From the IMG/VR virus record IMGVR_UViG_3300029915_000731, positions 36,341 through 100,340 of that record: a DNA stretch of 64,000 nt. One strand, given 5' to 3'. Below are positions 2,719 through 63,206 of this stretch, in pieces. Within the stretch, counting starts at the first letter, position 1; each line of letters starts with the position of its first letter. The notes under the pieces are model-generated. The model worked only from the letters and a program-made list of their open reading frames with translations. It was not told the origin of the DNA and ran no database searches. This DNA is from a virus. The translations under genes and the position numbers were made by a program.

Positions 2719-3240
2719 CTACTCCTGTTTTTGTGCGGCCATGGCTTTCTTGGCAGCTCTTTCCGCTCGAACCCGCTTAGCGGTCTCAATCCAATCGTCG
2801 CCGAGTTGATGTTGCGGTTTATTAACCTCGGCAACCGGCGAGTAGTTGTCGGAGGTTGGGGTTGCGTTCACCTTACGGGCTCGGATATCCTCCTTGCGTT
2901 TCTTGGCGGCATACTCACTGCCAAGCTTGGCGAACTCATCGGTGAAGCGGTGGAATGGGCTAGTATAGCCATCCTTTGCGTACCACTCCATCAAGCGGCT
3001 GACCCAGTAGATGCGCTCACAGAGCGCATAGTCGATAACCCCGTTCAACTCATCTTCCGACCAGTCTTTCAACATGTTCAGAAAAAATAATTTCCAACTT
3101 GATATCACGGTAAGCGGCTCAGCTATAACTTTTGGGTCTTTCCCACTCAACTCCCAAAACTTACGGGAGAGTCGGGCGGCGGCTTTGCGTTGCTCCAGCG
3201 GAAATTCCTTGATAGCTTCGATGGGAGGTTTGTAGGCCAT
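2719..3240 (-). CDS. Hypothetical protein in the replication module
   Basis: 173-aa ORF translationally coupled between the initiator-like gene and the loader. Confidence 0.6.
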   Translation of the reverse strand: MAYKPPIEAIKEFPLEQRKAAARLSRKFWELSGKDPKVIAEPLTVISSWKLFFLNMLKDWSEDELNGVIDYALCERIYWVSRLMEWYAKDGYTSPFHRFTDEFAKLGSEYAAKKRKEDIRARKVNATPTSDNYSPVAEVNKPQHQLGDDWIETAKRVRAERAAKKAMAAQKQE

Positions 3241-3818
3241 CAGTCATCCCCCTCTTCAGCGAAAGCGAGGTCTGCCCGTTCTGAAAGCGAGAGCGAGGTT
3301 GAGGAGCCCTCTCCCAAGCCAGAACCAAAGCCAAGACCCTCTCCAAAGCCAAAGCCAAAGCCATGGTCGCCCTCTGCTACCTCTTTGCTACCCTGAGGGT
3401 ACCCTTCTGTTAACCCAATCCCAGATACAATATCACCCGCAAGGAACTGCTTGAGTAACAAGCGGGGAACTGGCTCCCCCATTTTCTCTTTTTCTTTGCG
3501 GCTGGGAGCGGGCAGTCTACCCGGTTTATCCATACCTACCCAATGACCCCACACTTTACCGTCTGTGCCAATCCAACGGAAGAGTAACTTGACACGTTCG
3601 TAGTCTTTCAACATATTCTCCACGTCAGTTACTTTGTAGGAAGGCCGATTATAGCTGTATACGATTGACCATATCCGTTTGGGGTTACATTCAAACGTGC
3701 CATTGGCGTATGCAAGTGGGATGAGGTTGGCAAACTCCGCCCTGAATTTCTCAGGTTGGACTTCAGCCAATTTGTCGGAACGCCATAGCGACTCCCCATC
3801 AACAATTCTCTTAGGCAT
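3240..3818 (-). CDS. Putative phage replication initiator (N-terminal domain type)
   Basis: MPKRIVDGESLWRSDK N-terminus and a (G-x)n tract GFGFGFGEGLGFGSGLGEG, as seen in phage initiators; sits between helicase and loader. SD-like GAAGAGGG before ATG 3818. Confidence 0.5.
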   Translation of the reverse strand: MPKRIVDGESLWRSDKLAEVQPEKFRAEFANLIPLAYANGTFECNPKRIWSIVYSYNRPSYKVTDVENMLKDYERVKLLFRWIGTDGKVWGHWVGMDKPGRLPAPSRKEKEKMGEPVPRLLLKQFLAGDIVSGIGLTEGYPQGSKEVAEGDHGFGFGFGEGLGFGSGLGEGSSTSLSLSERADLAFAEEGDD

Positions 3819-3872
3819 CAAACCCTCTTCTCGTGGTACCCGTAGGCTACCCTGCTGCTACCCTAATACTCA

Positions 3873-5375
3873 CTATTCAATGTAACCGTCTGTTGGGTAC
3901 AGCAGATAGTTGGCCTCACTGTCTGTCATGTTGCTCGTGATATTCTCAGAAGAGACCTTGATAGTAGTGCCTTTGTCACAGATATACCCCAAAGTTTCGT
4001 TCAACTCCACCTTGTGTGCAGCGAATAACGGGCCACCACGAGCCTTCATGCACCGGAGCATCAGGTTAGGCGGGGTTACCTCTTTAAGGTTGTCTCCCTC
4101 GAACCACACTGATATCACCATGTCCATATCTTGTGCGGCCTGCGTGTACCAGTCGATGGCACCAAGAGATTGGTACTCACCGATTTTATCCCCCTCCTGT
4201 TTCGCCGCCTCGTCATGTCCCTTCTTGTTTGCTTGTAGTGGGGTGACGATGACCAACCCAGACTTATCGTTACGGATACCGTTACGGGTCAACATTTGGG
4301 CTTTACGGAAATCCTTTTTGTGCTCTTCTACCTCATCTCGGCCTTTTACCATTAAGTGGGTAAAGTAGTCGATGGCGAGAACGTCGTAGTCCACTTGGTC
4401 TACCGTGGCTTGCATGTACTCTTCAATTTCACCCCAACTCTCTAACGGCTCAACAATAATTTTACCTTGGAGAAGTGTTCCATTCTTCAGGTCACGTATT
4501 ACTTTCTTCATGTTGGTGTCAAACTTCGGATCGAGAGTGCTGCCCGCCTCAATCCATTTGACACGACTGCACAACTCAAGCTCTGGGAAGTTTGAGGCAT
4601 GGAGATATGCTAGTTGCATATACGCTTCATCCACGGAGACTTCTCGGGGGACAAGCAGTACATTCTTCCCGGACATGGCCATGTTGTAAATGAGAGACAG
4701 CAGTAAGAGCGACTTTCCATGGTTGGTGTAACCGAGGATGCCAATCCAGCGATTGGGCTGGCGGCGTCCTATGACACAGGTATCAATAGTGCCAAACTTC
4801 GTAAAGATGCGAGAACTATCAGAGAGTATATAACTGTCGAAAATATTTTGGATATGGTCGGCGTTGGTTTTCAGGTCACCGGAGATCACCTTCGGGCCTT
4901 TGATGACCATCTTTTCCTTTTCTTCGTGTAAATATTGTTCAGCAGCTAGCTTACCTTTCTCCTTTGTCTTCGGGTGCTCCATACCCCCAGAGACAATTTG
5001 AGCCGCCACCATATAGGCGTTGGAGCTGTGCGCCTCAAGTCCTTGCTGGTAGACAGCCTCCATCAGGATAGCGACCTCCCCTACCGGGGTTTTGTCGGAC
5101 TGAAGTTCAGTAATTTCCTCCTCAATTATTTTTCCCTTCTGTTCGAAGTATTCTTTCTTATCGAAGTTGCTCTGAACAAACTGGAGTAGGGAGACTAGGG
5201 TATCGGGGCACTTCCCAAGCCGTTGGTCATAGTAGAGGATGGAACGCATGGTGTCTGCAAAGGGTTCATCTCGAAGGTGCTTATAGGCGTATTCGAGAAA
5301 TTTTCGGTCACGGGTTAAAGTCTCATGTGGGTTGTCGCGAATCAAAGCTTGTATAAGTAGACCTATTTCATTCAT
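3873..5375 (-). CDS. DnaB-like (SF4) replicative helicase
   Basis: Walker A GYTNHGKS, LAIDYF Walker B, PLQANK, AQDMDMV and KAR motifs. Confidence 0.85.
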   Translation of the reverse strand: MNEIGLLIQALIRDNPHETLTRDRKFLEYAYKHLRDEPFADTMRSILYYDQRLGKCPDTLVSLLQFVQSNFDKKEYFEQKGKIIEEEITELQSDKTPVGEVAILMEAVYQQGLEAHSSNAYMVAAQIVSGGMEHPKTKEKGKLAAEQYLHEEKEKMVIKGPKVISGDLKTNADHIQNIFDSYILSDSSRIFTKFGTIDTCVIGRRQPNRWIGILGYTNHGKSLLLLSLIYNMAMSGKNVLLVPREVSVDEAYMQLAYLHASNFPELELCSRVKWIEAGSTLDPKFDTNMKKVIRDLKNGTLLQGKIIVEPLESWGEIEEYMQATVDQVDYDVLAIDYFTHLMVKGRDEVEEHKKDFRKAQMLTRNGIRNDKSGLVIVTPLQANKKGHDEAAKQEGDKIGEYQSLGAIDWYTQAAQDMDMVISVWFEGDNLKEVTPPNLMLRCMKARGGPLFAAHKVELNETLGYICDKGTTIKVSSENITSNMTDSEANYLLYPTDGYIE

Positions 5376-26175: not shown

Positions 26176-29100
26176 ATGTCAATCAATTTTCCAAATGTAG
26201 TTTCTAGAACGTTAGACCCATCGGGAAAGTCCCTCCTAACTGTGGTCGGTCTTCATGACCGACAGCTTTCTGATGCCGACCTCAACCTGATTCAATCTCT
26301 TCAGGATTCGAAGCGACAGAAGCTAGTCAGCAACATGGCGACCTCTGGATGTTTGACCTATGCTCCTTTTCAGTTTGTCCCCAGTATCGACAACACGTTC
26401 TTGATTCCCCAATTCGACGTGCTCTTCAACGGTGAAGTCGTCACCATTGCAGGTCACCTGTCGGACGACCCCACCCTCAACCGGGTTGTGATTCCTCAGC
26501 CGACCTCTTGGATAGCGGGTCAGACTTCTGAACCAGCGGCTATATACGTTGTTTTCTTGGAGATGTGGTATCAGAACCTCGACCCATCAACGGGCGAGGG
26601 GTATCTCCTAGACCCCTTTGATTCCACTCAATATTTCTACTACCCCTACGGGTGTGTGAACCCCGATTTGAACTCCGCCATTGCGGGGCCGAATGCCATG
26701 CCGGATGATGCCATCGACATCTTCGACAGCGGTCTTCAGACCACTCAGCGTGCCCAGATTCAGTGGCGTTTCAACGTCCAGCGGGTCGCCCTGACCTATG
26801 ATTTCACCCAGTATAGCTTCGGCCTTCAACCAGGAGCCCGCCCAACTGAGATAGTGTATGCACAAGCTCAGCCACAAGGCGGCTCAACTCCCATCATTGA
26901 TTCTGGATACACGTATTGGAACCAAGGAGATACGAGTTCATCCAACCCTCATTTCACAGGAGATACGGGGCTATGGGCGGCTGGTGATGTCACTCAAGGG
27001 ACAATTAACTCCCTCAACACGTTAGACGGCTTGAGCTATGCCCTCCCGATGGCCATTGTCTGCCAGAAAAACACGGGGAACTTTAATGTTCAGACCAACC
27101 CATTCGGCTGTGGAAATTCATCAAACGCCTCGCTTTCCGGGAGATACGACCAAAAGCTAGCTACTCAGATTTTTGCTGAGGATGTAGTCGATACCCGGCA
27201 GACAGTGAGCCTCAACGGCTGGGACTACGAAGACCTGCTGCGTGGCGGCTTCGTGGATGTCATCTCAGGGAACTGCCGTCTTGCCATCTCTCGCGGTATC
27301 TCACCGGGTATGGATAGTCGGGCGTTGGGTTCGGCTTTGGATTACTATGTTTCGGTGGCTCCTTCAACCTCCCCCGTACTCAACACAGATGAAATTGGAC
27401 AGTGGGACGGCTACGCCAATGGCTTCAGTTCCGATCAACGTACCTTCTATGTTACTCAGCAGGTGACCAAAGCGGGTAACAACCAGACATGGGTGACAGG
27501 GGGTTTCAATCCCGACACGTTCAACTTGAGTTTACCCGGCCAGAGTTCAGCCACCATCTCGTCCGCTGTAGTGCAAGCATTCAACACACAGGGTAACGTG
27601 AAGGTTCCAGTGACTCTACAGCCCGGTCAAATCACCATAACAGGCATAGGGTCTAAGCAGATTACGGTGACCCTATCCTCCCCCCTCACAGGCACCCCGT
27701 TCAATCCTGGAGCCAACCATCTTTACGTCACTTTGGGGGTGCAGTATCCGGCTGCTTTGAGTATGAATCTGAGGAACAGTCCCATTGCAATAGCTGGTGG
27801 CACTCTATCAGATACAGTTTCGAGCAAATACCTCCCGGTGTTCGGAGTATCTGAGTACCTCACTAAGACAACCCCGCCCGTACTTCAGAACGCTCTGTCT
27901 GGGGTGTCGGTAAGTAATGTGGTTTCAATTAACCCCAACTACTCTAACCTCATTTTCGGGACGAGAGTTACGTTGTCTTACTCGGTGGCAGCGGGGATTG
28001 CAGCCGGAAACATCATCACTCAAACTGTCAACAAGGCAACCACAACCACCTTTGTATTTGACCGCACCGGGGCTGGCTATGGCATCTACAGCTCTCCTAC
28101 TGGGGGTCAAGGAATCAATGGGCTCTATGTAATCAATTGCTGGGATGCAAGTACGGGCACAAATATCCCCTACACTATTACCTCACAACTTCTGAACGGG
28201 ACGAACTGCTTGGTTACTGTTTCAGGGGCTGTAACTGTGGGCGCTCAGCCGATGTTTACCTTCTTGGCTCAGGACACAACGCAACTCGTTTACAACGCTC
28301 CAGTCGGGGGAGTAACCGCGATTGAGGAGGTAGTTCTCTTCGGTACGTATACCAGCGACCCCACTCTTACCATGGAGCAGCGAATTGTTAAAGAATCGGT
28401 ATCGCTTGACTCTACGGGAGCTACCCCTGTTACTACAATGGTTTTTGCGGCGAATGGCTGTACGATAAAAGGCATCGCCGGAAACGATGTCAGTAAGTTG
28501 ATTTGGGTGAAAGACAACGTCGGAAACCTCAACTCCGTGCCCGTAGCGAGTGCCAATTTCACCAACGGTTTGGTGACGGTCACCATTAACGGTGACTACT
28601 ACACCTCCTCGCCCCAATTTTTCTTTGTAGGCTCTATCCTCCCCGCTCTCTCGCCAACTTCGACCTTGGTGTTACAGGAGCGGTACGTTCCCTATCAAGG
28701 TGAGGGCACCACTACCCACCAATACGATGTTCTGTTGACGGGCGATTCAGCTCTGATTACCACAAATGGGACAGGCAAGGCCCCTGTGGTCGGACTGGCC
28801 GATGTATACCCATACAATCGCGAGATTCCAATCTCCACAACCCTTCCGTGCCAATTGGCTTGGAAAGACGCCACTTTGACTAACGCCGCCGTGGCCAGCT
28901 TCTTTGACTCGAACTATGAGGCGATGCGGCAGAACAACGTAGAGCACACTTTTGAAGCACCATTGCACACGAACGACTTCATCCCCCCGATGAACAAAGA
29001 CACCCGCAAGCAGGTTCAATTACTGTCTTCCGGCGGCGGGCGCGGCTTTTCTCAAGCTACGCCTCATCTTGGTTTTGCTATCCGCCCATTGGTATCACGT

Positions 29101-30039
29101 ACTGTGCTTGGTCAGAATCTTCAGGCCACCACAGCTCCCATTGTTCTGTACGTGAACAACCAGAATGGTAGTGACAACAACGACGGACTCTCTTTGCAGA
29201 CACCGAAGTTGACCATCACAGCGGCTCTGAATTTGCTGCCTCCAGTGTTACGTCACCCTTGCTCTATTCAGCTTGTGGATACAAAGACACCGTTCTCGAT
29301 TCTTTCCTCAGCATCCACCCTTGAGGTTATCGCTCTGGGAGATGGTGTAATTCGCTCCTCAGAATACTACGCCCTTGCCAACCTAGCTTTCACCATGCAG
29401 GAGAGCGGTCGTTTGGTGATTACTACAAACCGTACCGCTGGAGCTACCAATCGAGTCACCATTGATGCTACCGGGTACGTGGGAGATGGCACCCCAACCT
29501 CGGCCTTCTTCATTGATACTACACGAGTCATATTCAACGGCATTTCTTTCACTGGTTTTCAAGACCCAGCCATCAAAGGAATTAATTCTGATATTGAATT
29601 TGTAGATTGCAATTGGCAGAGTAATATTCAATGTGGGTCTTTCGAGCAGGGTTGTGGTGTAATCGTGGAGAACGGCAATATTACCTTACCTGACGGGGGT
29701 ACTGGCTTTGTTATGTCCTCCTCTGAGCTTACGGTATCGGGTACCACCCTTGGGGTGGTTGCGGGTGCAGACTCCGGTGCGTTCTTTACCGGAGAGCGGC
29801 AGTCCACGATTAATCTATCCAATCACGGTACTAGCACACTGCAAGAGACGAACATCATAGCAACGACGGTGGTCGCTGAGGTTCAACTGAACTCTAGCGT
29901 CGTAGTTGACCCCTCGTTCCAAACCAACGGTATGGCTGACTTAGCCGCTAACTCAGTATTATCACGTCAAGTGACTGTCAACCCCTTTGCTGGGGGGGTA
30001 ACAGTGGATGCTTCTTCAACCACGGTAACTTCACTCTGA
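26176..30039 (+). CDS. Large tail-fibre/baseplate-associated protein with C-terminal beta-helix-like domain
   Basis: 1287 aa; LYVNNQNGSDNNDGLS...TITAAL motif typical of the start of pectin-lyase-like beta-helices. Confidence 0.6.
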   Translation: MSINFPNVVSRTLDPSGKSLLTVVGLHDRQLSDADLNLIQSLQDSKRQKLVSNMATSGCLTYAPFQFVPSIDNTFLIPQFDVLFNGEVVTIAGHLSDDPTLNRVVIPQPTSWIAGQTSEPAAIYVVFLEMWYQNLDPSTGEGYLLDPFDSTQYFYYPYGCVNPDLNSAIAGPNAMPDDAIDIFDSGLQTTQRAQIQWRFNVQRVALTYDFTQYSFGLQPGARPTEIVYAQAQPQGGSTPIIDSGYTYWNQGDTSSSNPHFTGDTGLWAAGDVTQGTINSLNTLDGLSYALPMAIVCQKNTGNFNVQTNPFGCGNSSNASLSGRYDQKLATQIFAEDVVDTRQTVSLNGWDYEDLLRGGFVDVISGNCRLAISRGISPGMDSRALGSALDYYVSVAPSTSPVLNTDEIGQWDGYANGFSSDQRTFYVTQQVTKAGNNQTWVTGGFNPDTFNLSLPGQSSATISSAVVQAFNTQGNVKVPVTLQPGQITITGIGSKQITVTLSSPLTGTPFNPGANHLYVTLGVQYPAALSMNLRNSPIAIAGGTLSDTVSSKYLPVFGVSEYLTKTTPPVLQNALSGVSVSNVVSINPNYSNLIFGTRVTLSYSVAAGIAAGNIITQTVNKATTTTFVFDRTGAGYGIYSSPTGGQGINGLYVINCWDASTGTNIPYTITSQLLNGTNCLVTVSGAVTVGAQPMFTFLAQDTTQLVYNAPVGGVTAIEEVVLFGTYTSDPTLTMEQRIVKESVSLDSTGATPVTTMVFAANGCTIKGIAGNDVSKLIWVKDNVGNLNSVPVASANFTNGLVTVTINGDYYTSSPQFFFVGSILPALSPTSTLVLQERYVPYQGEGTTTHQYDVLLTGDSALITTNGTGKAPVVGLADVYPYNREIPISTTLPCQLAWKDATLTNAAVASFFDSNYEAMRQNNVEHTFEAPLHTNDFIPPMNKDTRKQVQLLSSGGGRGFSQATPHLGFAIRPLVSRTVLGQNLQATTAPIVLYVNNQNGSDNNDGLSLQTPKLTITAALNLLPPVLRHPCSIQLVDTKTPFSILSSASTLEVIALGDGVIRSSEYYALANLAFTMQESGRLVITTNRTAGATNRVTIDATGYVGDGTPTSAFFIDTTRVIFNGISFTGFQDPAIKGINSDIEFVDCNWQSNIQCGSFEQGCGVIVENGNITLPDGGTGFVMSSSELTVSGTTLGVVAGADSGAFFTGERQSTINLSNHGTSTLQETNIIATTVVAEVQLNSSVVVDPSFQTNGMADLAANSVLSRQVTVNPFAGGVTVDASSTTVTSL

Positions 30040-30058
30040 TGACGGGAAAAGGTAGACA

Positions 30059-33000
30059 ATGTCACTGACTCTTCAATCCAATTTCACAACGCAACCCAAT
30101 CTAGTGCTCCCGCTTGCTCAAAACACAAGCGGCCTCGCTGTTCGTCTGGTTTCACAGGGGTCGGGCACCATGGGCACTCTGACAGCGACAGGGGCACAGG
30201 GGACTCCTACCTTTACCCTGAATAACGCCCCATCTTTTGTCACTCTTGGCGTTGATCCGACCAACACAGTTGCCACGCTACAGTTCGTTGGGGCTACTTA
30301 CCAGCCCGACCCTTATGGCTTCTACGTGTCCTGCACGGATGGAAATTCGACTGTAAATTTCCCTATATTCTTGGAAATTCGCCAGCCTTTCTCATTGTTG
30401 GCAAGCACCCCCAGTCTTGCTTCTGGTGCCACCCCAGTCATCACCAGCCAGAGCCCCCTCACCCTTAACATCCCGTCGTACGACAGCACGGTGGCAGATG
30501 TTGAAATTCAAGGGATTGGTCTCTATAACGCTGTACAGAGTAACGTCAGCTTCATCCTCCCTTCTTCACTCCCGGAGGGGATGAGCTTTGTCACCTCAGA
30601 CAGGACTAAACTAGTCCTCCGAGTCGCTCCCGCGACCTATTCGGATATGTCAGGTGGCCTAAAAACCTTTGAAAACGCCCCAACTGCTCAGTCAGTTACT
30701 ATTTACGCCTATCAACCGAATTCGTTTTATGATAGCCCATCGAACCTATTTGTTTTGAACCTCTCGGTAGGCTCTCAGTCGGCTAAGGTGGGGACTCTTG
30801 ATATTGGTGTCGGGGCTTATTACGATACGGTTAGTGAACTTCTCCACGCTGACGCACAAGTTGATGTGTTGATGGGGGCTCTAAAATCAAGCGGTGCGGT
30901 CATCGACCCCTCCACATTCACATATACATGGACAGCTTCAGGCACGGCGGTTGTCACCCCCAATGGGGGAACAACCAGTCGCTCTGCAACTTATCAGATT
31001 CTTTCCCCGGGCAGCTTGACCCTCGCTCTCACTGTGTCTGCGAACGGTGTGACTATCGCAAATGGTTCCCAGACGGTAACTTTCAATCAGGTTGCCCAGA
31101 GCGGCGGCGCTTCTTGGCTTGCGACCAACGCTATCAAGGTTGGGGTTAGTGGAGACCGAGTTCAAGGGTACAGCGGGGACACAGTGAGCTTTGTGGTGTC
31201 CTCCCCTGAGTTTAATACAGGAGAGACCCTGACTTTCACCACAACCGTTAGCGCAGAGATGGGAGGAGCCTCCGTAGGTGGAGCGTTGGTTCCCCCTGCG
31301 GTTTTGAGTTCCAACACGTTTACCTTGAATGCCACTACAGTGTCTCAGGCGGTGAATGTTCAGATACCTTCGGTGGCACCTATTGGATGCAAGTGGGTGG
31401 TTGGCCTTACAGCCTCCAACGGTGCAACCCGCAGGGGCTACGCTCAGGTGCTCATCGAGTGCTCAGGCGCAGCGCCCCTAGCGGTCACGGTTCCGGTTGC
31501 CCTTAGTTCCAGCACAGGCACCGCCATTACCCCGATTCAATTGACCGCCACAAATGGAGACCCGCTTTCACCAAGTTATGGTCTGGCAGTGCCTTCAGCC
31601 ACTTTCGAGTTGCAGGGAGCCCCAGACGGGTTCTACATTAACAGCCAAAACCAACTGGTCGGAAACGCGACTACACCCGGAACCTACACATTTATTGTCA
31701 CTGCTAACGCAACCGGCTATGCGAGAGGCTACAGCAATACGATAACCGTCACGGTTAGCCGAGGTTTGGCTCCTCTGACGATTACTGGCTTTGTTCCTTC
31801 GGTAACCTCGATTCAGAACAACACCTCATTTAATTTAACTTGGGGCACCTCGGGTAACGCTACCGACTTGTACCTCCTCCAGACCCCGGCTCCAACCCCA
31901 ATTCGAGATGTCACAGGGGCAACCTCCACCAGCGTGCAGCAGGTGGGCTCTGACGTGTATTGCCTCTATGGGGATAGCTACTACGGGACAGCCTACTCTG
32001 TCCCCGTAGTGGTACTCTCCAGCTCGATTGGGACGGCGCAGGCTCTACTCCCCTCTCCGACGATTGCGCTCATTGACGATAGCAATCAGTTGACGGTGAA
32101 CTGGCAACCCTACGCGGTGAGCGGTGACTACACCGTTTACAAGGGATGGGACATAACAATAAATCAATTGGCTGTTGGAGCAGTAGCCAGCCAAAGTGAG
32201 ACTCTCCTCACTGATGGATTGAGTCTGGGTACAGTTTCCGCTCGTGAATTCCAAGAAGCCCTCACAGTGGTGGCTGATTACACATTGGACATGCAGGCAT
32301 TGTCCAACAATTACATGCTGGCTCTTGACTCGACATCATGGGATACGCCACACCAGTTCCCAGCCGTGTTTAGCTCGGCGAACGTCATCTTTGATAACAC
32401 CACTCTTTTGCTTGGTCAGCCGATGACCATCACCCTTCAGAATAGTTATTCGGGGGCGGATGCAGATTCATGGCAGGTGGTATACCCAGATAACACTTCC
32501 ACTGGGTGGCTCCCGCTGAGCACAACAGCAACGGTAAAGATTTTCAATACACCGGGAACATTCGATGTCATCATTCAAACCCAGAAGGATTATGGAACGA
32601 ATAACCCACCCGTCAAACTGCGTCGGCAATTGACGCAGCAAGTTCTGGTGATGAACCAACAGTACAACTCGCAATCTTCGATTGATGATGATTTGACCGG
32701 AACCCTGGGCGTTGCGGGTACCCAAGGATTCGAGATTATCAACGTCACTGGAGGGGCGACGACCCAGCCTTACGAAGTTGTAGTGAGAGCGATTGCTCGT
32801 GACACTATTACTAATGAATTGAAGCTAATGGTGGCCACCAGCCGCTACTCCAACGCCAGCTCCCTTTTGGGAACCATGGCTATTGATGTATTTCCAATCG
32901 GGGGTCGTCCACACGCTCCAGAGTTCATTGCTCCGGTGTTCGTTCTGGAGACTACAAACAGCACTTCATCAGTTCCGGTGGCTATCCAGAACAACGATCA

Positions 33001-62024: not shown

Positions 62025-62039
62025 AACTTTCTCCTAAAA

Positions 62040-62385
62040 ATCGGTAGGGGGAGCTTTTGGCTCCCCCATCCTAGCGACTGCGGGGCCGAAGCCCTGCTTG
62101 ATTTATAAGGGGTGTCACACCCCTCACGCTTCGCTTATTACTAAGCAGCAGCGGCCATAGCAAATTCATTGGCAGTTACTATTTTGCATGTCCGTTTAAC
62201 GAGAGCCATACAAACTCGGGTCGTCAGCAAATCCAGCACCAAATACCGTCGAATCTTTGACGAGCCCAAATAGGCGATTCAAGCCTAAGACTACCACTGC
62301 ATAATTTGGTGGACTCGGGGACATATGCTAGTCCCGTCCGATAATCAATGTAGACGCATCATCTCTTTCGAGGGGCACGACCATA
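62040..62385 (-). ncRNA. ssrA: tmRNA gene, circularly permuted (two-piece)
   Basis: Acceptor piece ends CGAGTCC-ACCA at 62307; coding piece starts GGGCTCG...GATTCGAC at 62267; 7-bp acceptor stem with G3.U70; pseudoknot 1; tag ORF ANEFAMAAAA at 62173-62144 then TAG TAA TAA. Outer ends approximate. Confidence 0.9.
62047..62067 (-). terminator. Terminator-like hairpin after the tmRNA
   Basis: GGGGGAGC-caaaa-GCTCCCCC followed shortly by a T run on the minus strand. Confidence 0.6.
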
Positions 62386-62390
62386 TAAAA

Positions 62391-62419
62391 ACAATACGCT
62401 AGTCTCCAGAATTTTGCAA
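62391..62419 (-). promoter_or_regulatory. Putative tmRNA promoter TTGCAA-N17-TATTGT
   Basis: Sigma70-like spacing; the predicted start (about 62385) coincides with the first paired segment of the acceptor piece. Confidence 0.55.
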
Positions 62420-62465: not shown

Positions 62466-63206
62466 ATGGCCCTCTACACTGTCTACAAAACAATCGACAC
62501 CCGAAATGAACACTACTACCTTGGCGTGCATAAAACCGCTAACCCCAACGATTCCTATTATGGGTCGGGCACCATTATCCGTAACCTCCTCGCCAAACAC
62601 GGGGAAGGCATTCTCCGAAAAGAAATTTTGTTCATCTACCCAACTGGAGAAGAAGCGTATGCCAAAGAGGATGAGTTGGTCGTGGTCTTTATCAACGACC
62701 CCCTCTGTTACAACCTGAGAAAAGGGGGACTCGGGGGGTTTGACTATATAAATAGAAATGGGTTACACAGGAGAGCACTTCCAGAAGTTGAAGCTGAAAA
62801 TGGAAAGCGGCTACAAAAATGGAGAGTGGGATTATCTCCCGAAGAACGACTTAAACTGAGCAGAGATGCGAATGCCCACTGGAGAGGAAAACACCACTCC
62901 CCCTCCTCGCTTGAAAAACTAAGTGCGGCTAGAAAAGGAAACAACAGTAGACAAGGGACTCGTTGGGTATACAACCTGAAATCAGGTCAAAAACGGCTAG
63001 TACCCGCCGATGAGGTAGACAGTCTCATTACGGAGGAGTGGGTGACCGGAAAGCTGAAAAAGAATAAATCTGCATCCAACTACGGGAAGCTGTGGATAAA
63101 TAACGGAACCATCAATAAGCTCATCAAACCCGCTGAATTAGCAGATTACACCGGGTGGGTGCGGGGTAGGCTCGACCCGTTTCAGCGTCATAACCGCTCT
63201 GTGTGA
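62466..63206 (+). CDS. Free-standing GIY-YIG (Seg-like) homing endonuclease
   Basis: YTVYKT...YYLGVH...YYGSG...E...YNL catalytic domain; NUMOD3-like GKHHS...KLSAARKG and WxxNG repeats. Confidence 0.85.
   Translation: MALYTVYKTIDTRNEHYYLGVHKTANPNDSYYGSGTIIRNLLAKHGEGILRKEILFIYPTGEEAYAKEDELVVVFINDPLCYNLRKGGLGGFDYINRNGLHRRALPEVEAENGKRLQKWRVGLSPEERLKLSRDANAHWRGKHHSPSSLEKLSAARKGNNSRQGTRWVYNLKSGQKRLVPADEVDSLITEEWVTGKLKKNKSASNYGKLWINNGTINKLIKPAELADYTGWVRGRLDPFQRHNRSV

What the first reader, a model, noticed from the sequence alone, without database searches (positions are those of the whole stretch)
62040..62385. Phage-encoded circularly permuted (two-piece) tmRNA
Seen, reading the minus strand: a promoter, then an acceptor piece (about 62385-62307) ending GGAC-GGGAC-loop-GTCCC-CGAGTCC-ACCA, a 39-nt intervening segment with its own hairpin (TAGGC/GCCTA), then a coding piece from 62267 (GGGCTCGTCAAAGATTCGAC). 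GGGCTCG pairs with CGAGTCC including the G3.U70 alanine determinant. ACGACC of the coding piece pairs with GGTCGT at the start of the acceptor piece. Pseudoknot 1 is intact (CGAG/CTCG, TTTGTATG/CATGCAAA), followed by tag ANEFAMAAAA and three stops. Known: permuted tmRNAs occur in Alphaproteobacteria and some cyanobacteria and betaproteobacteria; the phage tmRNAs I know are one-piece. Inference: a possibly independent permutation in a phage, giving it its own ribosome-rescue/tagging RNA, perhaps to replace host tmRNA cut by defence nucleases.
Basis: partly seen in the sequence, partly recalled or inferred. Interest (0 to 1): 0.85.

Follow-up and report, generated by a model that had tools for sequence, protein, structure and literature searches.

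The report
Divergent two-piece tmRNA in huge phage
This is a real gene for a two-piece (back-to-front) ribosome-rescue RNA in a fragment of a very large phage; related huge phages carry the same gene family, so it is a divergent new member of an already known kind, not the first of its kind.

Summary
Rfam's permuted-tmRNA model hits 62141-62363 just above its cut-off (49.7 vs 47 bits). ARAGORN misses the gene at default settings.

The strongest evidence comes from relatives. The contig is about a third of a huge phage. Phages sharing its RecA-like protein (300-460 kb genomes) carry homologous permuted tmRNA genes, including all 3 complete genomes. Across 7 distinct family members the acceptor stem and T-stem are 100% paired with many compensatory changes, and G3.U70 is invariant. 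A covariance model built without the candidate finds it as top hit (70.1 bits, E 2e-16) at exactly 62215-62384.

The novelty premise fails. Phage two-piece tmRNAs are published (Buchholz 2022), huge-phage tmRNAs too (Al-Shayeb 2020), and this scan has noted the kind on other DNA many times.

The remaining points of interest:
- The family reaches no alpha, beta or cyano lineage cut-off, although its layout is beta/cyano-like.
- The candidate has an odd 8-nt T-loop and lacks the GG of the D-loop analogue.
- Two relatives have tRNA-like domains identical to one-piece Acidobacteriota tmRNAs.

No bacterial near-identical copy and no phage SmpB were found. Expression is untested.

The parts
62391..62419 (-). 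Promoter-like site: TTGCAA (62419-62414), 17-nt spacer, TATTGT (62396-62391), about 7 nt before the RNA start
   Evidence: Read from the sequence. It is only an 8-of-12 consensus match and the scan did not call it. It aligns with high posterior probability to the promoter block of the beta_tmRNA model, and family members have stronger promoters at the same position. Function is inferred.
62307..62384 (-). Acceptor piece (78 nt): P2d 3'-side strand GGUCGU, small CUC-GAAA-GAG hairpin, P2 strand, GGAC, T-arm with 8-nt loop, acceptor 3' strand CGAGUCC, A73, encoded CCA
   Evidence: RF04321 alignment. Co-fold reproduces P1, the T-arm and P2. Family covariation. Leave-one-out model R1.
62323..62330 (-). 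Non-canonical 8-nt T-loop (UAGCAUAU) in place of the usual 7-nt UUCGAnU
   Evidence: Five of 7 family members have canonical loops. L176 also deviates. A nearly identical T-arm occurs in an alpha-type phage tmRNA, L054.
62268..62306 (-). Intervening segment (39 nt) with a UAGGC/GCCUA hairpin, presumed to be removed during maturation
   Evidence: Spacer length varies from 4 to 78 nt across the family. Removal is inferred from established two-piece tmRNA processing.
62219..62267 (-). Start of the coding piece: acceptor 5' strand GGGCUCG (G3 pairs with U70), D-loop analogue lacking the usual GG, UUCGAC, P2 5'-side strand, ACGACC closing P2
62183..62218 (-). Pseudoknot 1: stem 1 is 62218-62215 with 62203-62200 (4 bp); stem 2 is 62214-62207 with 62190-62183 (8 bp, one G.U)
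   Evidence: Read from the sequence. The standard tmRNA model RF00023 aligns this region with high posterior probability. Stem 1 is 75% paired across the family.
62135..62173 (-). Tag reading frame: resume codon GCC, tag ANEFAMAAAA, then TAG TAA TAA
   Evidence: The AUAACU before the resume codon is shared with L172 and L173, and family tags end similarly in AM(A)AAAA.
62036..62134 (-). 3' domain: stop codons in a small P5-like hairpin, hairpins at 62125-62107 and 62097-62080, a terminator-like hairpin at 62067-62047, and a U-run at 62040-62036. The exact 3' end of the coding piece is unknown.
   Evidence: Fold. The beta model aligns the first GC hairpin. The last hairpin and what follows are homologous to L172, with compensatory changes, and the motif occurs only here in this contig. 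Whether a pseudoknot forms here is unresolved.

Best explanation
The locus is a genuine two-piece (circularly permuted) tmRNA gene of a huge phage. It is a member of a divergent family conserved in that phage clade.

Likely mechanism; every step below is inferred from established tmRNA biology, none is shown here:
1. A precursor of about 350 nt is made from its own promoter.
2. Host RNase P cuts at G1 of the coding piece (62267).
3. The 39-nt spacer is trimmed back to the encoded CCA (62307).
4. The 78-nt acceptor piece and the roughly 230-nt coding piece stay joined by the intermolecular helices P1 and P2.
5. Host alanyl-tRNA synthetase charges the RNA through G3.U70 and A73.
6. With host SmpB and EF-Tu, the RNA enters stalled ribosomes.
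7. Translation resumes at GCC (62173) and adds (A)ANEFAMAAAA, freeing the ribosome and marking the product for host proteases.

The benefit to the phage is probably keeping ribosomes free during infection. On origin, the layout is the one shared by betaproteobacterial and cyanobacterial two-piece genes, so a shared origin with those is more likely than a fresh permutation.
For: - Rfam: RF04321 scores 49.7 bits against a cut-off of 47, full length. The standard model RF00023 aligns the 5' tRNA-like half, PK1 and the resume region with high posterior probability.
- Intact elements in the candidate: P1 7 of 7 pairs with G3.U70, T-stem 5 of 5, P2a 5 of 5, P2d 6 of 6, PK1 4 + 8 bp, an intact tag frame and a triple stop.
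- Phage context: the contig is an IMG/VR viral record of 100 kb, about 32% complete, with 21 tRNAs and baseplate and replication genes.
- Relatives: phages found through the RecA-like protein carry permuted tmRNAs, including 3 of 3 complete genomes of 332-463 kb.
- Covariation in 7 distinct members: T-arm and P1 are 100% paired, with 5 of 5 and 4 of 7 pairs changed on both sides. The U.G pair is invariant. P2d is 97.6% paired. The covariation score is 0.324 against 0.147 for shuffles (0 of 500 reach it) and at most 0.124 in slid registers.
- Leave-one-out model R1: the candidate is the top hit, 70.1 bits, E 2e-16, at 62215-62384.
- Related tags and identical pre-resume context in the family.
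- R1 matches beta (53-66 bits) and cyano (47-57 bits) two-piece genes over their full length, but alpha-type genes only at 13-19 bits.
Against: - The T-loop is non-canonical (8 nt), and the GG of the D-loop analogue that normally contacts the T-loop is missing. Folding of the elbow, SmpB binding and charging are therefore uncertain.
- The Rfam score is only 2.7 bits above the cut-off, and ARAGORN fails at default settings.
- The interaction energy of the two pieces is not better than for shuffled sequence.
- The middle of P2, taken from the candidate's own fold, is not supported by the family (56% paired).
- The promoter match is weak.
- No SmpB was found in this contig or in 5 relatives.
- There are no expression or processing data.
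Confidence: 0.82

Rival explanations
1. The gene is homologous to tmRNA but no longer works as a tagging RNA. It would be either a decaying copy or an RNA that acts mainly through its altered tRNA-like domain, for example by soaking up host SmpB, as proposed for the tRNA-like-domain-only RNA of mycobacteriophage DS6A.
For: - Odd 8-nt T-loop and loss of the D-analogue GG.
- Among the lowest Rfam scores in the family: 49.7 bits, with L176 at 43.4 and the other full members at 70-85.
- Missed by ARAGORN.
- Sits in a region with mobile-element remnants and a homing endonuclease gene (note e1-6021561).
- The DS6A precedent is described in PMC4131195 and PMC11915505.
Against: - Every helix, PK1, the resume context and the tag frame with its triple stop are intact. 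Random decay would break some of them.
- The candidate scores higher on the family model than the withheld member L173.
- A second member (L176) also has an odd T-loop and also lacks the GG, and an alpha-type phage gene scoring 88 bits has almost the same T-arm. This suggests a tolerated, remodelled elbow rather than damage.
Confidence: 0.12
2. On origin: the huge-phage family is a separate, fourth permutation event. It would have arisen from a one-piece tmRNA within phages or their hosts, and would not descend from the alpha, beta or cyano two-piece lineages.
For: - No member reaches the cut-off of any lineage model; the best is beta at 51 bits against 84.
- Ordinary one-piece tmRNAs of the beta order score the same 25-50 bits on that model, so the beta score carries no lineage signal.
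- Both tRNA-like halves of L174 and L175 (22 and 33 nt) are identical to those of one-piece Acidobacteriota tmRNAs.
- The start of L172 matches one-piece Bacteroidota and Rhodothermales genes.
Against: - The family shares detailed layout with beta genes: promoter, then AUGGUYGU, which pairs with the strand just before PK1.
- A hairpin sits right after that start, as in cyano genes.
- A post-tag pseudoknot with an AACAGAA-type linker occurs in L174 and L176, as in beta and alpha genes.
- The family model matches beta and cyano genes over their full length at 47-66 bits.
- Identity of the tRNA-like domain with hosts can arise by gene conversion or by selection for host enzymes.
Confidence: 0.18
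3. The gene is a recent capture of a bacterial host's own permuted ssrA, for example through imprecise prophage excision.
For: ssrA is a common integration site, and fragments of it are known in prophages (discussed in PMC9004378).
Against: - No bacterial species representative carries the candidate's T-arm or its 5' tRNA-like signature in a tmRNA.
- There are no DNA matches in the phage collection.
- The gene is conserved across a clade whose RecA-like proteins are only about 40-54% identical, so it is old in this lineage.
- True beta genes score 169-296 bits on their model against 30.7 for the candidate.
Confidence: 0.03

Closest known systems
Betaproteobacterial two-piece tmRNA (Rfam RF01850; the 'third lineage' of Sharkady and Williams 2004, as cited in PMC9004378)
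   Same: - Permuted gene order.
- A promoter directly before an acceptor piece that starts AUGGUYGU and pairs with the strand just 5' of PK1.
- The spacer forms a hairpin.
- A single PK1 before the tag.
- Similar tag-coding stretch: ANDE.FAMAA-type consensus against ANEFAMAAAA.
- A GC-rich hairpin after the tag.
- The family model matches beta genes over their full length at 53-66 bits.
   Different: - The candidate scores 30.7 bits on RF01850 (cut-off 84; true members score 169-296), no more than one-piece tmRNAs of that order.
- Its P2 3' strand is longer.
- Its T-loop has 8 nt.
- No clear post-tag pseudoknot was found.
- It sits in a phage.
Phage-encoded two-piece tmRNAs of marine myophages (OM43 phage Melnitz, pelagiphages, cyanophages; Buchholz et al. 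2022, PMC9004378)
   Same: A complete permuted ssrA carried by a lytic-type phage with its own promoter and no phage SmpB reported. The proposed roles are the same: keeping the hijacked translation machinery running, or tagging proteins.
   Different: Those genes are alpha-type or cyano-type and are found by ARAGORN. Alpha-type viral examples fetched here (L052, L054) score 88-92 bits on RF01849, whereas the candidate has no alpha match at all. No glutamine riboswitch was found here.
tmRNAs of huge phages (Al-Shayeb et al. 2020, PMC7162821)
   Same: Genomes above 200 kb with many tRNAs and translation-related genes, including tmRNA.
   Different: That study used ARAGORN, which misses this gene at default settings, and it also reported SmpB. 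No SmpB was found in this contig or in 5 relatives, 3 of them complete.
Cyanobacterial two-piece tmRNA (Rfam RF01851)
   Same: Permuted order, and a hairpin right after the first P2 strand. The family model matches cyano genes over their full length at 47-57 bits.
   Different: The candidate scores only 9.9 bits, partial, on RF01851. The cyano genes fetched here do not encode the CCA and have very short spacers, whereas the candidate encodes CCA.

Membership tests
tmRNA (general) | 7-bp acceptor stem with G3.U70, discriminator A73 and a 3' CCA | tested here: met
   GGGCUCG with CGAGUCC, then A and CCA. The U.G pair is invariant in all 7 family members, and 4 of 7 pairs are compensatory.
tmRNA (general) | T-arm with a canonical 7-nt T-loop (UUCGAnU type) | tested here: not met
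   The 5-bp stem is present and covaries, but the loop is 8 nt, UAGCAUAU. This departs from the norm. It is shared in kind by family member L176 and by the alpha-type phage gene L054.
tmRNA (general) | D-loop analogue with GG, followed by UUCGAC and helix P2a | tested here: inconclusive
   UUCGAC and P2a are present and conserved. The GG is absent in the candidate and in L176, the two members with odd T-loops.
tmRNA (general) | Pseudoknot 1 immediately upstream of the resume codon | tested here: met
   Stems of 4 bp and 8 bp. The RF00023 alignment of this region has high posterior probability.
tmRNA (general) | Tag frame that starts at an Ala codon without a start codon and ends in hydrophobic/Ala residues plus a stop | tested here: met
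   GCC resume codon, tag ANEFAMAAAA, three stops.
tmRNA (general) | SmpB partner | not testable with these tools
   No phage SmpB in this contig or in 5 relatives. The host is unknown, so host SmpB cannot be examined.
tmRNA (general) | Expression, processing into two pieces, alanine charging, tagging | not testable with these tools
   No transcript or proteome data are available.
Permuted tmRNA (Rfam RF04321) | Score at or above the curated cut-off of 47 bits, over the full model | tested here: met
   49.7 bits, model positions 1-213.
Alphaproteobacterial two-piece tmRNA (RF01849) | Score at or above 50 bits | tested here: not met
   No match at E up to 10.
Betaproteobacterial two-piece tmRNA (RF01850) | Score at or above 84 bits | tested here: not met
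   30.7 bits. One-piece tmRNAs of the same order score 25-50 bits.
Cyanobacterial two-piece tmRNA (RF01851) | Score at or above 70 bits | tested here: not met
   9.9 bits, partial.
Huge-phage permuted tmRNA family (defined here) | Recognised by a covariance model built from the other members only | tested here: met
   R1 was built from 5 relatives. The candidate is the top hit: 70.1 bits, E 2e-16, full length, 62215-62384.
Huge-phage permuted tmRNA family (defined here) | Carried by phages of one clade (related RecA-like protein, genomes of 300-460 kb) | tested here: met
   The tmRNA is found in 3 of 3 complete relatives.

The most novel reading that the evidence does not exclude
The huge-phage genes form a fourth, phage-borne lineage of permuted tmRNA. 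It would keep its own permuted scaffold (P2, PK1, AM(A)AAAA-type tags) while swapping or re-tuning its tRNA-like domain to copy the one-piece tmRNA of whatever host it infects. In the candidate and in L176 the T-loop/D-loop elbow would have been rebuilt in a way no bacterial tmRNA in the collection shows.
Probability: 0.2. Interest if true: 0.6.

Novelty: new member of a known kind. Interest (0 to 1): 0.35.

Why it matters
Standard annotation misses this gene: ARAGORN finds nothing, and Rfam only barely passes it. Counts of tmRNA in huge phages are therefore probably too low, and the family model built here could recover more of them.

The family also offers a natural experiment on what the tRNA-like domain must look like. 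Relatives copy the domain of likely hosts exactly, while two members tolerate a rebuilt T-loop and D-loop elbow.

It does not change the picture that phages carry two-piece tmRNAs; that is already published.

Tried and rejected
- **ARAGORN:** nothing at default or at an 80% threshold. It calls the gene only at 60%, amid obvious false positives.
- **DNA similarity to the deposited phage collection (near and distant modes):** no match.
- **Exact-pattern scans** for the T-arm, the T-loop plus acceptor strand, and the resume/tag region in viral, metagenome and genome collections: only chance hits in coding DNA, apart from L020/L024.
- **Close relatives through the helicase:** none found.
- **Thermodynamics:** the co-fold reproduces the canonical structure, but the interaction energy is not better than for shuffles (120 of 300 reach it), so energy is not evidence here.
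- **Beta-lineage membership from the 30.7-bit hit:** rejected after the control showed one-piece tmRNAs scoring 25-50 bits.
- **Host capture:** no bacterial tmRNA carries the candidate's 5' signature.
- **The odd T-loop as an allele immune to the neighbouring homing endonuclease:** the other two odd-T-loop genes (L054, L176) have no endonuclease neighbour within about 1.5 kb, so there is no support.
- **The 3' motif after the last hairpin as a recurrent phage signal:** it occurs only at this locus in the contig.
- **Mid-P2 pairing from the candidate's own fold:** not supported by the family.
- **Unpublished genome:** included one unpublished genome (G070) among 151. No claim here rests on it.

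Full report
**What is there.** On the minus strand of 62036-62419 the sequence reads, in order:
- A weak promoter-like site: TTGCAA, 17 nt, TATTGT.
- An acceptor piece, 62384-62307. It starts AUGGUCGU and ends with GGAC, a 5-bp T-stem around an 8-nt loop, the strand CGAGUCC, A, and CCA.
- A 39-nt spacer with a 5-bp hairpin.
- A coding piece starting at 62267 with GGGCUCG, a D-loop analogue, UUCGAC, the P2 strand and ACGACC.
- A pseudoknot with stems of 4 and 8 bp.
- AUAACU, then the frame GCC...GCU encoding ANEFAMAAAA, three stop codons, and three further hairpins, the last followed by a U-run.

**Detectors.**
- Rfam's merged permuted-tmRNA model RF04321 is the only family above its cut-off in the whole window: 49.7 bits against 47, full length, 62141-62363.
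- The standard tmRNA model aligns the 5' tRNA-like half, PK1 and the resume region with high posterior probability.
- ARAGORN finds nothing at default settings. At a 60% threshold it returns the same permuted layout and the same tag, along with false positives.
- An unconstrained co-fold of the two proposed pieces gives 31 intermolecular pairs: P1 with G3.U70, the T-arm, and a long P2 closed by GGUCGU/ACGACC. The interaction energy is no better than for shuffled sequence, so I do not count energy as evidence.

**Context.**
- The window is the last 64 kb of a 100,340-bp IMG/VR viral contig that CheckV puts at about 32% complete.
- The contig has 21 tRNA genes, a baseplate-J protein and large Ig-domain proteins, a DnaB-like helicase, and a RecA-like protein, an intein-bearing PhoH and a ribonucleotide reductase.
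- A homing endonuclease gene lies 81 nt upstream of the tmRNA on the other strand.
- No SmpB gene is present.

**Relatives and covariation.**
- No close DNA relative exists in any collection I could scan.
- The RecA-like protein has relatives at about 40-54% identity on contigs of 300-460 kb.
- Twenty-six related IMG/VR records were located and scanned whole with RF04321.
- All three complete genomes (332, 463 and 456 kb) have a permuted tmRNA at 70-79 bits. A 231-kb contig has one at 85 bits, two fragments share one at 43 bits, and a tag-pattern scan added one more. That makes 7 distinct sequences with the candidate.
- All seven share an acceptor piece that begins with GGUYGU (AUGGUYGU in six of them). 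This strand pairs with the strand just before PK1. A hairpin follows it directly, a short stem with a GCAA, GCAA, GUAA or GAAA loop in four members and a longer hairpin in the rest. Five share an upstream promoter. Most tags end in AM(A)AAAA or similar.
- On a MAFFT alignment with a structure I named:

| Helix | Cells paired | Variation |
|---|---|---|
| T-arm | 100% | 5 of 5 pairs changed on both sides |
| P1 | 100% | 4 of 7 pairs compensatory; U.G at 3:70 invariant |
| P2d | 97.6% | 1 pair compensatory |
| P2a | conserved | compensatory swaps |
| Middle of P2 (from the candidate's fold only) | 56.6% for the whole P2a-c helix | not supported |

- The covariation score is 0.324 against 0.147 for shuffles (0 of 500 reach it) and at most 0.124 in slid registers.
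- A covariance model built from five relatives without the candidate finds the candidate as its top hit: 70.1 bits, E 2e-16, full length, at 62215-62384. That is above the withheld member L173 at 63.8 bits.
- Homology and family membership are therefore secure.

**Which lineage.**

| Lineage model | Candidate's score | Cut-off |
|---|---|---|
| alpha (RF01849) | no match | 50 |
| cyano (RF01851) | 9.9 bits, partial | 70 |
| beta (RF01850) | 30.7 bits | 84 |

- A control showed that ordinary one-piece tmRNAs of the same bacterial order score 25-50 bits on the beta model, while true beta genes score 169-296. The beta score therefore says nothing about lineage.
- No family member reaches any lineage cut-off.
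- The layout nevertheless matches beta genes closely: a promoter, then AUGGUUGU pairing just before PK1, a similar tag-coding stretch, and a terminal GC hairpin.
- Cyano genes also have a hairpin after the first P2 strand.
- The family model matches beta genes at 53-66 bits and cyano genes at 47-57 bits over their full length. Alpha-type genes score only 13-19 bits, and one-piece genes match only in the tRNA-like core.
- I conclude that the family has the beta/cyano-style permuted layout. It is too divergent to assign, and an independent permutation is possible but not needed to explain the data.

**Host capture.**
- No bacterial species representative carries the candidate's T-arm or its 5' tRNA-like signature in a tmRNA.
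- Two relatives (L174, L175) have tRNA-like halves of 22 and 33 nt identical to those of one-piece tmRNAs of Acidobacteriaceae and related Acidobacteriota. L172's 5' half matches one-piece genes of a Bacteroidota MAG and a Rhodothermales MAG.
- The phage scaffold thus stays permuted while the tRNA-like domain copies likely hosts. That fits reliance on host AlaRS, RNase P and SmpB, and none of 5 relatives encodes SmpB.

**The odd elbow.**
- The candidate's T-loop has 8 nt and lacks the UUCG core.
- The candidate and L176 (loop AUGGCGA) are the only two members that lack the GG in the D-loop analogue.
- An alpha-type phage gene scoring 88 bits has nearly the same T-arm, with a compensatory change in the stem.
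- This looks like tolerated remodelling rather than decay, because every helix and the tag frame are intact. It is still the main reason for doubt about function.
- I tested whether the odd loop could be an allele immune to the neighbouring endonuclease. The other two odd-loop genes have no such neighbour, so the idea has no support.

**Literature.**
- A 2014 review lists only one-piece phage tmRNAs (PMC4131195).
- Buchholz et al. 2022 found 53 two-piece forms among 133 unique phage tmRNA structures, mostly marine (PMC9004378).
- Al-Shayeb et al. 2020 report tmRNA and SmpB in huge phages (PMC7162821).
- RF04321 itself was built in 2025 by merging the three bacterial lineage models (PMC11915505).
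- This scan's own notes already hold many phage two-piece tmRNAs on other DNA.

**Verdict.** This is a real and probably functional two-piece tmRNA gene. It is a new and divergent member of a known kind, and it belongs to a huge-phage family that standard tools under-detect. Expression, processing, charging and tagging are all inferred. One search included one unpublished genome (G070); no claim here depends on it.

Noticed in passing
window 62466-63206 (+): A homing endonuclease gene (phrog_314, E 8e-31) lies 81 nt upstream of the tmRNA on the opposite strand. The stretch was noted earlier as rearranged. Its target site is unknown.
   Followed up: partly
L174 and L175 (463-kb and 332-kb relatives) compared with L357, L338, L302 and L285: Both tRNA-like halves of these phage two-piece tmRNAs (22 nt and 33 nt) are identical to those of one-piece tmRNAs of Acidobacteriaceae and Vicinamibacterales. 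This hints at Acidobacteriota hosts and at copying or conversion of the tRNA-like domain.
   Followed up: partly
L200:543-780 (-), same gene as L281 (170-kb contig): In this family member only about 4 nt (CUGC) separate the encoded CCA from G1 of the coding piece, so the 'spacer' is little more than a loop that must be cut.
   Followed up: no
L183:1431-1950 (+) (128-kb relative, G198): A tRNA-like acceptor end with CCA is followed by a small open frame for a hydrophobic peptide of about 34 residues. RF04321 scores only 18 bits here, and I did not locate the coding piece. It may be a tmRNA with a gene in its spacer, as noted elsewhere in this scan.
   Followed up: no
L143:6677-8395 (-) (contig bases 6677-8395, upstream of the window): A PhoH gene (288 bits) is interrupted by a LAGLIDADG domain, probably an intein.
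   Followed up: no
contig 3234-4826 and 28886-32984 (upstream of the window; L143, L144): There are 21 tRNA genes in two clusters, including seven tRNA-Leu and two tRNA-Tyr in tandem. The family model R1 gives a weak full-length hit (21.7 bits) at L144:9131-9276, overlapping tRNA-Glu; this is probably just tRNA likeness.
   Followed up: no
L054 and L055 (IMG/VR records 3300048015_000034 and 3300048014_000057): An alpha-type phage two-piece tmRNA (88.6 bits on RF01849) has a T-arm almost identical to the candidate's (loop UAGCGUAU), although the rest of the RNA belongs to another lineage.
   Followed up: partly
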